Virus record (IMG/VR): IMGVR_UViG_3300030450_002194
Span: 7,006-71,005 of that record
Origin: a virus
Length of the DNA: 64,000 nucleotides
Strand: one strand, 5' to 3'
Part shown: positions 27,233 to 27,890 of the stretch, piece after piece
Numbering within the stretch: the stretch's first letter is position 1
How the letters are laid out: every line of letters begins with the position of its first letter
Notes under the pieces: generated by a model
The model's database searches: none
Told to the model about the DNA's origin: nothing
What the model saw: the letters and a program-made list of their open reading frames with translations, nothing else
Position numbers and translations under genes: made by a program

Positions 27233-27273
27233 GGTGGCGACCGAACCCACCTATACTCACAGGAGTGATAAAT

Positions 27274-27813
27274 ATGGTTGATTACAGCATGGAAGACAGC
27301 GTATGGAGCAACAAGAAAGAACACATTGCCGAGTGGTTTACTGCAAACCCAGAGCATGAAGGTAGGAGAGTCATTGTGGACGGATTGTTCGCAATAGGCG
27401 ATTCTCAGCCAGACCTCAGAAAGAGGCACTGGTCGAGCATTAGCGGAGTATTCGCAGATTTGGATAACTCCCCTATTGGCGGTGGAAGGAAGTCACTAAT
27501 GACAACCGCCGTTAAGTCCGACTTTGACAAGTACCTCGGTACATTCAGAGAGAACATGGCAACAGTCGTGTACCCACTGGTTTCCGGTACTGCAAAGACA
27601 CACGGAAAGTCCGGTGGCATCCTTTACGCCACTATGGAAGATGGGGCATCCGAGTACGCAGACGATATGACGAAGAAAGAGAGGCTATTCTTGAATGCCG
27701 CTTTCAACGCATACACCACGAACAACACCGAGAAGAGGTATTTCTGGGACGGTTCGTACAACGAGGATGGTTATCCAGTAATAACCGATAATGGGGGTCA
27801 AGAAGAGGAATAG
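27274..27813 (+). CDS. HGKS-family protein of unknown function (array cassette)
   Basis: GGAGTGA upstream of ATG 27274; W...GD...R...HGKSGG...YA pattern shared with 24926-25435. Confidence 0.8.
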   Translation: MVDYSMEDSVWSNKKEHIAEWFTANPEHEGRRVIVDGLFAIGDSQPDLRKRHWSSISGVFADLDNSPIGGGRKSLMTTAVKSDFDKYLGTFRENMATVVYPLVSGTAKTHGKSGGILYATMEDGASEYADDMTKKERLFLNAAFNAYTTNNTEKRYFWDGSYNEDGYPVITDNGGQEEE

Positions 27814-27890
27814 GGGTGTTTGGTCGCCACCCTCCCTTCGGGGACTTGTTTACAAAGTTATTGTCCATATGGTAATGGGCTTTGTAAACA

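What the first reader, a model, noticed from the sequence alone, without database searches (positions are those of the whole stretch)
27233..27831. 5' leader and 3' trailer of the HGKS gene are complementary (panhandle mRNA)
GGTGGCGACCGAACCCACCTA (27233-27253) pairs with TAGGGGTGTTTGGTCGCCACC (27811-27831), with a G-U pair on the sense strand, closing the whole 540 nt ORF in a loop. A CCC-TTCG-GGG hairpin follows. Inference: end protection, circularisation or processing, or the gene is cargo inserted in the loop of a hairpin unit.
Basis: seen in the sequence. Interest (0 to 1): 0.7.

Follow-up and report, generated by a model that had tools for sequence, protein, structure and literature searches.

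The report
End-paired mRNA in archaeal virus
A small gene of an uncultured ocean virus of archaea makes a message whose first bases pair with the bases at and just after its stop codon. Matching mutations keep this closed design in dozens of related viruses, and it probably shields or re-uses the message.

Summary
27233-27253 pairs with 27811-27831: 18 Watson-Crick pairs, 1 G-U and 2 mismatches out of 21. The helix closes a 540-nt ORF (27274-27813), and a CCC-TTCG-GGG hairpin follows.

It is not chance. Among 79 ORFs of the window this one scores -42.2 kcal/mol against a median of -8.0.

It is conserved. All 78 loci examined (window plus 77 relatives) have such arms, with 49 distinct arm pairs. 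Each 5' arm fits its own 3' arm best in 8 of 8 divergent representatives. Explicit compensatory changes are seen in a seven-locus clade. No bulge-helix-bulge was found in 0 of 43 distinct pairs, and no back-splice joint was seen.

The virus is archaeal (RFC and TFIIB homologues). The helix starts about 22 nt after a TATA-like box. Metatranscriptome contigs end at that base in this cassette and in a paralogous one.

The gene is one self-contained expression cassette in a 6.5-kb array bounded by CCATATGG sites. Relatives carry the cassettes in a different order and orientation.

Best reading: an RNA end-to-end helix that protects or closes the mRNA. The function is inferred, not shown. This scan has noted the same design on other DNA (e1-6121997, e1-6071522, e1-6120528).

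The parts
27173..27198 (+). Left end of the cassette: CCATATGG (27173-27180) followed 7 nt later by ACTTTGT. It mirrors the right end.
   Evidence: (families D1, D5). The CCATATGG ... CTTTG module is present upstream of the ORF in all distinct relatives printed.
27202..27211 (+). ACCTTAAATA, a TATA-box-like promoter element. Its last A lies 21 nt before the helix.
   Evidence: The automatically called helix start lies 24-30 nt after the first A of the TATA core in 31 of 41 loci measured.
27233..27258 (+). 5' arm of the end-to-end helix (core 27233-27253). It is also able to fold on itself (GGTGG...CCACC). The inferred transcription start is at 27233-27235.
   Evidence: An RNA contig of run X1 (depth 52.5) begins at 27235, preceded by adapter-like letters.
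27261..27269 (+). Shine-Dalgarno-like AGGAGTGAT, left unpaired between the helix and the ATG.
   Evidence: GGAG(G)TGAT-like strings sit 5-10 nt before the ATG in the relatives.
27274..27813 (+). ORF of 179 aa with an invariant HGKSGG motif and an acidic C-terminus. Its function is unknown.
27804..27831 (+). 3' arm of the helix (core 27811-27831). It contains the stop codon TAG at 27811-27813.
27833..27844 (+). Small UUCG-type hairpin (CCC-TTCG-GGG), conserved in most relatives.
   Evidence: last alignment block.
27846..27872 (+). T-rich tract (TTGTTT, a putative termination signal), then ACAAAGT and CCATATGG (27865-27872). This is the right end of the cassette.
   Evidence: (family D4).
24804..25532 (-). 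Paralogous cassette. TATA-like CTTATATA; 5' arm about 25477-25453; ORF 25435-24926 (169 aa, HGKSAG motif, EEE tail); 3' arm about 24921-24897.
   Evidence: RNA contigs of X1 and X2 (one sample) end at 25475, which is 22 nt after the TATA-like box.

Best explanation
The two repeat arms are the two halves of an RNA helix that closes a monocistronic viral mRNA end to end. The gene sits in a self-contained expression cassette of an archaeal tailed virus whose gene content resembles that reported for magroviruses. The cassette reads, in order: CCATATGG boundary, ACTTTG block, TATA-like box, transcription start at the first base of the 5' arm, free Shine-Dalgarno site, 179-codon ORF, 3' arm beginning at the stop codon, small UUCG hairpin, T-rich tract, CAAAGT block, CCATATGG boundary. 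In the closed form neither RNA end is single-stranded, and the stop codon lies next to the ribosome-binding site. Each arm can also fold on itself, so when a terminating ribosome melts the long helix, both ends can still sit in local hairpins. Shown: the helix exists in the sequence, is conserved by compensating changes, and begins where RNA contigs and the promoter spacing place the 5' end. Inferred: it shields the message from exonucleases and makes each shuffled cassette independent of its neighbours, and it may also favour re-initiation.
For: Conservation: 16 of 16 and then 78 of 78 loci have arms of -30.4 to -56.4 kcal/mol, with 49 distinct arm pairs. This holds down to 27-35% protein identity. 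Lineage specificity: among 8 representatives with under 70% flank identity, the cognate 3' flank is the best partner in 8 of 8 rows and 8 of 8 columns. The diagonal mean is -35.4 against -16.4 off the diagonal, and mean z is -6.5 against shuffles. Compensatory changes occur at helix positions 6, 8, 9, 10 and 11 in a seven-locus clade, with 12-13 of 13 positions paired in each. One is a C-G to G-C swap in a relative whose protein is 98% identical. These positions lie in the loop of the local 5' hairpin, so only long-range pairing explains them. Strand bias: in a strand-symmetric alignment of the 5' flank with the reverse complement of the 3' flank there are 899 matches, 53 mismatches that are G-U on the sense strand and 11 that would be G-U only on the antisense strand. 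Sense exceeds antisense in 22 loci, the reverse holds in 3, and 18 are equal, out of 43. The sense duplex is the more stable in 30 of 43. Geometry: the 5' arm ends 12-21 nt before the ATG and the 3' arm starts 9 nt before to 6 nt after the first base of the stop codon. Promoter and RNA: the TATA-like box lies 21 nt before the arm in the window, L004 and L005, and the distance is 24-30 nt from the first A of the TATA core in 31 of 41 loci. Contigs from RNA libraries of 3 studies cover the ORF. One begins at 27235 behind adapter-like letters. In the paralogous cassette, contigs of 2 runs from one sample end at 25475, the predicted start. Archaeal setting: the RFC small subunit matches archaeal RFCS at 1.2e-48, a TFIIB homologue scores 1.1e-4, and the virus has PolB and an ATP-dependent ligase. 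The whole-transcript MFE and centroid folds both keep the helix. A distant paralogue family (blastp E = 0.005) also has ORF-enclosing arms with different sequences.
Against: No experiment or read-level data show the pairing in vivo. The RNA 3' end is unknown. The tool states that contigs cannot show ends, so the 5'-end coincidences are only hints, and my reading of the loose letters as adapter rests on recall. A fixed-column pair count on the MAFFT alignment was inconclusive: 51.1% of cells paired against 46.7% in shuffles, but 60.3% when the partner is slid by +1. The cause is 1-nt register shifts. The per-locus duplex evidence is therefore fitted separately for each locus. In the paralogous family B there is no sense-strand G-U bias (11 against 13), and the cognate is the best partner in only 8 of 11 rows with narrow flanks. 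Many loci are related, and some metagenome loci are the same contigs as IMG/VR loci, so the counts are not independent. The function (stability, insulation, re-initiation) is untested.
Confidence: 0.6

Rival explanations
1. The arms act as DNA. They are inverted repeats used for recombination, either to mobilise the cassette or to flip the ORF relative to its promoter as an invertible switch.
For: The cassette lies in an array whose units differ in order and orientation between close relatives. The arms are an inverted repeat, and each is itself a palindrome-like hairpin. Family B shows no sense-strand G-U bias.
Against: Breakpoints between relatives fall at the CCATATGG sites, not at the arms (compared with the site lists). 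In all distinct upstream sequences printed, the CCATATGG-CTTTG-TATA module lies upstream of the ORF in the same orientation, so no flipped ORF was seen. The HGKS arms show a 53 to 11 sense-strand G-U bias. The helix starts at the inferred transcription start.
Confidence: 0.1
2. A hok-like lock. The 5'-3' fold-back keeps the full-length mRNA stable but poorly translated until the 3' end is trimmed or the helix is opened, giving delayed or conditional expression.
For: The stop codon and 3' arm pair with the extreme 5' end. Each arm has an alternative local hairpin, so two conformations are possible (sequences).
Against: The Shine-Dalgarno site and the ATG are outside the helix in all loci. The 5' arm ends 12-21 nt before the ATG. 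No antisense RNA or toxin-like feature was seen, and the protein is not small or hydrophobic.
Confidence: 0.1
3. The helix is a processing signal for a double-strand-specific endonuclease, as in rRNA operon stems or T7 early mRNA sites, which cuts the unit out of longer transcripts.
For: A helix of 21-27 bp is long enough for such enzymes. Units are packed head to tail, so read-through transcripts are conceivable.
Against: The cassette has its own promoter at a fixed distance. The RNA contig begins at the first bases of the helix rather than inside it. I did not test whether the unknown host has an RNase III.
Confidence: 0.07
4. The helix carries a bulge-helix-bulge. The archaeal splicing endonuclease and RtcB ligase then excise and circularise the mRNA.
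For: The host is archaeal. From recall, archaeal rRNA and some other RNAs are circularised through flanking helices.
Against: 0 of 43 distinct helices contain a 3-nt bulge, 4-bp helix, 3-nt bulge arrangement. The commonest irregularities are 1x1 mismatches and 1-nt bulges. No backward joint was found in the contigs of 4 RNA runs, which is weak evidence because contigs drop rare forms.
Confidence: 0.03

Closest known systems
5'/3'-UTR interaction of Bacillus subtilis hbs mRNA (PMC5737220; I saw only the search listing and the start of the abstract)
   Same: Complementary segments of the 5' and 3' untranslated regions of a single mRNA pair. That paper links the pairing to ribonuclease action and mRNA stability.
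   Different: Here the host is an archaeal virus. The helix starts at the very first base, is about 21-27 bp long, includes the stop codon, and is part of a mobile cassette. No nuclease is known.
hok mRNA tac/fbi fold-back of plasmid R1
   Same: Long-range pairing of the extreme 5' end with the 3' end closes the full-length mRNA.
   Different: There is no antisense RNA and no toxin-like peptide here, and the ribosome-binding site is not sequestered.
PeSL regulatory cassettes of T4-type phages (PMC2839356, abstract and outline; PMC4122927, listing only)
   Same: Small accessory ORFs in a hyperplastic region are flanked by repeated promoter and stem-loop/terminator motifs. Recombination at these motifs shuffles modules between close relatives.
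   Different: PeSL stem-loops are local terminators beside sigma-70 promoters. Here the promoter is TATA-type, the boundary is the palindrome CCATATGG, inversions are common, and the helix spans the whole ORF.
Conserved TATA-plus-inverted-repeat motif before ORFs of haloarchaeal virus HGTV-1 (PMC3950731, passages; sequence seen in L083)
   Same: An archaeal tailed virus in which many small ORFs are each preceded by a conserved TATA-like box and an inverted repeat. The authors compare this to PeSLs.
   Different: In HGTV-1 the repeat is a local stem-loop between two TATA-like boxes in the intergenic spacer. I saw no CCATATGG there and did not test for ORF-spanning pairing.
Archaeal rRNA processing stems with bulge-helix-bulge motifs, and circular RNA intermediates (recalled)
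   Same: Sequences flanking a long RNA pair to form a helix that encloses it.
   Different: No BHB was found in 0 of 43 helices. The enclosed RNA is a protein-coding message with its own promoter.
Panhandles and cyclisation sequences of RNA virus genomes (recalled; PMC6288177 seen only in a listing)
   Same: Terminal complementarity brings the two ends of an RNA together.
   Different: Those are replicating RNA genomes of eukaryotic viruses. Here it is an mRNA of a dsDNA virus of archaea.

Membership tests
End-paired (5'/3'-UTR interacting) mRNA | Complementary segments upstream of the start codon and at or after the stop codon of the same gene | tested here: met
End-paired (5'/3'-UTR interacting) mRNA | Pairing maintained by compensating changes in relatives | tested here: met
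   The fixed-column count was inconclusive because of register shifts.
End-paired (5'/3'-UTR interacting) mRNA | Both segments lie inside one transcript | tested here: inconclusive
   For the 5' side: promoter spacing and an RNA contig starting at 27235. For the 3' side: no RNA contig reaches 27811-27831. A hairpin and T-rich tract follow the arm.
End-paired (5'/3'-UTR interacting) mRNA | Pairing changes mRNA stability or translation | not testable with these tools
   This needs reporter or half-life assays.
BHB-processed or circularised archaeal RNA | Bulge-helix-bulge (3-4-3) in the flanking helix | tested here: not met
   0 of 43 distinct helices.
BHB-processed or circularised archaeal RNA | Back-splice junction in RNA | tested here: inconclusive
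   No backward joint in the contigs of 4 RNA runs. Contigs drop rare forms.
PeSL-like mobile regulatory cassette | Repeated promoter and terminator motifs flanking accessory ORFs | tested here: met
   154 promoter-bearing cassettes were found in the loci.
PeSL-like mobile regulatory cassette | Module shuffling between close relatives with breakpoints at the motif | tested here: met
   L005 against L006, the window against L004, and L012 against L014. Homologous units occur in another order or inverted, with alignment ends at the CCATATGG positions.
PeSL-like mobile regulatory cassette | Excised mini-circles | not testable with these tools
   No DNA read data were laid.
Invertible DNA switch | Both orientations of the segment between the repeats occur | tested here: not met
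   The promoter module lies upstream of the ORF in the same orientation in all distinct upstream sequences.
RNase III-type processing stem | RNA ends lie inside the helix and come from cleavage of a longer precursor | tested here: inconclusive
   The contig begins at the first bases of the helix. The phosphorylation state is unknown and host RNases were not examined.
Magrovirus (virus of Poseidoniales) | Tailed-virus morphogenetic module plus an archaeal-type replisome (PolB, RFC, ATP-dependent ligase and others), as described in PMC5434244 (passages) | tested here: inconclusive
   PolB, RFC, ligase, RNR, portal and terminase were found. MCM, primase, PCNA and RadA were not sought, no phylogeny was made, and the host is unknown.

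The most novel reading that the evidence does not exclude
These are closed-loop mRNAs of a cassette-shuffling system of archaeal viruses. The CCATATGG palindromes are crossover sites of an integron- or shufflon-like exchange. Each exchangeable cassette carries its own promoter, terminator and end-to-end RNA helix. The helix toggles with two terminal hairpins during translation and places the stop codon beside the ribosome-binding site, so that ribosomes recycle on the same message. This would be a prokaryotic counterpart of eukaryotic mRNA circularisation.
Probability: 0.15. Interest if true: 0.85.

Novelty: new variant of a known kind. Interest (0 to 1): 0.65.

Why it matters
Pairing between the two ends of one mRNA is known from a handful of bacterial messages. 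I found no description of it for archaea or their viruses. The searches were, and in three papers on magroviruses, none of which mentions hairpins, palindromes or promoters. Here the design is kept by compensating mutations across dozens of uncultured ocean viruses. It is tied to a defined promoter-to-terminator cassette, and the gene is covered by contigs in marine metatranscriptomes. That gives a compact, testable model for how archaeal mRNAs are stabilised or re-used. It also suggests how viral accessory genes can be moved and inverted without losing expression. The sequence rules (helix from +1, free ribosome-binding site, stop codon inside the helix) could be tried directly in archaeal expression vectors.

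Tried and rejected
Fixed-column covariation. On the MAFFT alignment of 39 units (A2), the window's 21 pairs gave 51.1% paired cells against 46.7% in shuffles, and a covariation score of 0.185 against 0.130 (0 of 500 shuffles reached it). Sliding the partner by +1 gave 60.3% and 0.229. A seven-row alignment showed the cause: 1-nt register shifts in three rows. I therefore used per-locus duplexes, an ungapped best-register count and a strand-symmetric alignment. A covariance model was not possible, because the helix spans 540 nt and joined sequences may not be typed.

G-U counting. The count (67 G-U against 3 A-C) is biased, because the folding program scores G-U as a pair. I rely instead. Family B shows no bias (11 against 13).

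Helix start. The automatic helix-start call ran upstream into the promoter in 10 of 41 loci, and the TATA regex missed 5 further distinct loci.

BHB. None in 0 of 43.

RNA runs. No contig of the 4 runs covers the 3' arm; contigs stop at 27779, 27797, 27801 and 27795. None covers the units of 24700-31400 other than 25008-25475, 27235-27801 and 29036-29204. No backward joint was listed. The shares of words held were small (0.05-0.15).

Protein function. No Pfam or PHROG family. No match in the phage collection by DNA or protein. The AlphaFold model has pLDDT 85.6. Foldseek found no PDB match at E <= 0.001 (best 0.58). The best VIA-align Z was 6.2, over 57 residues of a helical part only. Atlas feature scores were 0.89 or less. 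Function stays unknown.

Other searches. Rfam at gathering scores found only the tRNA. The nearest cultured relatives by terminase are distant (28% or less). One search, a paper search with min_terms 1, returned only promoter papers and was useless. One search (the motif CCATATGG in papers) gave only primer-like hits in the 20 papers listed. HGTV-1 region 1-50000 was fetched but not scanned for the motif. The motif was found in 128-143 kb of the record.

Rejected readings. A DNA-looping reading, with one protein binding both arms, was rejected: the arms differ between near-identical relatives by compensating changes, and the mismatches favour sense-strand G-U. Supplementary files of the papers were not available and may hold genome maps that show the array.

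Full report
WHAT IS THERE. The window is bases 7006-71005 of a 71,005-nt viral record. The repeat finder confirms arms 27233-27254 and 27810-27831: 22 nt, 86% complementary, 555 nt apart. The arms enclose the ORF 27274-27813 (179 aa). The stop codon TAG (27811-27813) is part of the 3' arm. A Shine-Dalgarno-like AGGAGTGAT (27261-27269) lies unpaired between the 5' arm and the ATG. CCC-TTCG-GGG (27834-27843) and a T-rich tract follow. Folding the whole 624-nt stretch 27233-27856 as RNA keeps the helix in both the minimum-energy and the centroid structures (z = -5.3 against 20 shuffles).

MORE THAN CHANCE. With identical flank windows, this ORF gives a 5'/3' duplex of -42.2 kcal/mol. The 79 ATG-started ORFs of at least 80 aa in the window have a median of -8.0 (sd 5.1), and the next best is -18.4.

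CONSERVATION AND COVARIATION. The protein has no Pfam or PHROG family but has 29 homologous clusters with an invariant HGKSGG motif. Fifteen loci came from viral contigs and 63 from metagenome contigs. Some of these are the same contigs held twice.
- In the window plus the first 15 loci, all 16 have complementary arms.
- With all loci, 78 of 78 (window plus 77; L070 lacked a stop) have them. There are 49 distinct arm pairs, at -30.4 to -56.4 kcal/mol.
- The arm sequences differ widely between lineages. Among 8 representatives with under 70% identity in both flanks, each 5' flank pairs best with its own 3' flank, in 8 of 8 rows and 8 of 8 columns. The means are -35.4 against -16.4 kcal/mol, and z against shuffles is -5.3 to -9.0.
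- In a clade of seven loci the first 13 helix positions are paired 12-13 of 13 times, while positions 6, 8, 9, 10 and 11 change on both sides. One case is a C-G to G-C swap in a relative whose protein is 98% identical.
- These positions lie in the loop of the hairpin that the 5' arm can form on its own. The compensation therefore speaks for long-range pairing, not for two independent hairpins.
- A fixed-column count on a sequence alignment was inconclusive because of 1-nt register shifts.

RNA OR DNA?
- A strand-symmetric alignment of the 5' flank with the reverse complement of the 3' flank gives 899 matches. There are 53 transition mismatches that are G-U on the sense strand, 11 that would be G-U only on the other strand, and 71 transversions. 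Sense exceeds antisense in 22 loci, the reverse holds in 3, and 18 are equal, out of 43.
- The sense duplex is the more stable in 30 of 43.
- The helix begins a fixed distance after a TATA-like box. ACCTTAAATA ends 21 nt before the arm in the window, L004 and L005. The automatically called helix start is 24-30 nt after the first A of the TATA core in 31 of 41 loci measured. The other 10 calls ran upstream into the promoter.
- Contigs from RNA libraries of 4 runs (3 studies) cover the ORF. One (depth 52.5) begins at 27235, preceded by letters that I recognise from memory as sequencing adapter.
- In the paralogous cassette on the other strand, contigs of two runs from one sample end at 25475, exactly 22 nt after its TATA-like CTTATATA.
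- The tool warns that contigs cannot show ends, so these are hints. They fall where the promoter predicts.

THE HOST IS ARCHAEAL. The record encodes family-B DNA polymerase, ribonucleotide reductase, ATP-dependent ligase, portal and terminase. It also encodes an RFC small subunit whose best solved relatives are archaeal RFCS (1.2e-48) and a TFIIB homologue (1.1e-4 over residues 17-192). This gene content resembles that reported for magroviruses (PMC5434244, passages). Membership was not tested by phylogeny.

CONTEXT: A SHUFFLED CASSETTE ARRAY.
- All 23 exact CCATATGG sites of the window lie in 24804-31284, where about 1 is expected. This stretch sits between the divergent replication and structural gene blocks. 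The sites bound about 25 units, most of which fold into long hairpins with ATTAA or TTAAT loops.
- The HGKS gene occupies the longest unit (27173-27872). That unit belongs to a separate class with ends CCATATGG-N7-ACTTTGT and ACAAAGT-N-CCATATGG and its own promoter.
- All 15 related viral loci have such arrays (9-23 sites per locus). The HGKS unit always lies between sites 666-742 nt apart.
- Between close relatives, homologous units occur in a different order and in either orientation, with alignment ends at the CCATATGG sites. Examples are L005 against L006 and the window against L004.
- The gene is therefore a mobile, self-contained expression cassette.
- A second cassette family (about 168 aa; HGKSAG motif and acidic tail; blastp E = 0.005 to the HGKS protein) also has ORF-enclosing arms of different sequence. 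It includes window 24804-25532 on the minus strand, at -36.1 kcal/mol. With narrow flanks its cognate pairing is best in only 8 of 11 rows, and it shows no G-U strand bias (11 against 13).
- A third family (66 aa, 28030-28230) has no such helix. It has a local 5'-UTR hairpin instead.

WHAT IT IS NOT.
- None of the 43 distinct helices has a bulge-helix-bulge, and no backward joint was seen.
- No ORF is inverted relative to its promoter in any distinct upstream sequence.
- The protein has a confident model that is mostly helical with two short strands (pLDDT 85.6). It has no convincing structural or sequence relative.

MECHANISM. I commit to an RNA end-to-end helix. Transcription starts at the first base of the 5' arm. 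The 3' arm, which begins at the stop codon, pairs with it once it is made. A small hairpin and a T-rich tract then end the transcript. Neither end is single-stranded, so the helix should hinder 5'-to-3' and 3'-to-5' exonucleases. This step follows from general knowledge of RNA decay and is not shown here. The helix also makes the fold of each message independent of whatever cassette lies next to it. A terminating ribosome must open the inner helix. Each arm can then form its own hairpin, and the stop codon lies within about 20 nt of the ribosome-binding site in space, which could favour re-initiation. Both points are inference. The rivals are DNA recombination signals, a hok-like translational lock, an endonuclease processing site and BHB circularisation. 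I rate each at 0.1 or less, for the reasons given in their entries.

COMPARISON AND NOVELTY. The closest known mechanisms are the 5'/3'-UTR interaction of B. subtilis hbs mRNA (PMC5737220, listing only) and the hok fold-back (recalled). The closest known genomic setting is the PeSL cassettes of T4-type phages (PMC2839356, abstract) and the TATA-plus-inverted-repeat motif of haloarchaeal virus HGTV-1 (PMC3950731, passages; sequence seen), where the stem-loops are local. I found no description of ORF-spanning end pairing in archaea or their viruses. The searches were, and in three papers on magroviruses, which found no mention of hairpins, palindromes or promoters. Earlier notes of this scan describe the same design on other genomes (e1-6121997, e1-6071522, e1-6120528) and agree with this reading. 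They are not independent evidence. I class the finding as a new variant of a known kind.

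Noticed in passing
window 24804-31284; loci L004-L018: The 6.5-kb array holds 23 exact CCATATGG palindromes (about 1 expected) bounding about 25 units. Arrays of the same kind occur in all 15 related viral loci. Units are reordered and inverted between close relatives, with breakpoints at the palindromes. This suggests site-specific or microhomology-driven cassette exchange.
   Followed up: partly
window 25681-31277: Most non-coding units fold into long imperfect hairpins capped by a G/C-closed ATTAA pentaloop, or by TTAAT when inverted. TTAAT predominates left of about 27,000 and ATTAA to the right, matching the divergent gene blocks. The two loop sequences are complementary to each other. 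Function is unknown.
   Followed up: partly
window 13852-14784 (-): A 309-aa ORF has a TFIIB zinc ribbon (Pfam 24 bits, below the cut-off of 29) and matches solved TFIIB over residues 17-192 (E = 1.1e-4). A virus-encoded TFB-like factor could direct the host polymerase to the cassette promoters.
   Followed up: partly
window 28885-29333 (+): This cassette has the same promoter module but no ORF above 42 aa and is highly structured. A contig of RNA run X6 covers 29036-29204. It is a candidate virus-encoded non-coding RNA.
   Followed up: partly
window 27865-28264 (+): This cassette encodes a conserved 66-aa protein (motif TIIQQIN). Its inferred 5' UTR holds a roughly 90-nt local hairpin (27922-28012) whose stem resembles the HGKS arms of other lineages, but the ORF lies after the hairpin rather than inside it.
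   Followed up: partly
window 23011-23097 (-): tRNA-Leu with anticodon TAA lies next to the array. The TTAAT loops of the hairpin units contain the same TAA triplet. This may be coincidence.
   Followed up: no
L083 34000-47500 (HGTV-1, record 128-141.5 kb): Nearly every spacer between the small minus-strand ORFs holds CCTTTTTATAG, then an approximately 9-bp stem-loop (ACTCCTCGTG GCA CGAGGAGT), then GGTATATAAA. This is the PeSL-like motif mentioned in the literature and a useful comparison for archaeal cassette promoters.
   Followed up: partly
window 34922-35722 (+): A 266-aa ORF in the structural block has a short match to Sigma-70 region 3 (E = 3.1e-7 over residues 37-60), probably a helix-turn-helix. 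It was not pursued.
   Followed up: no
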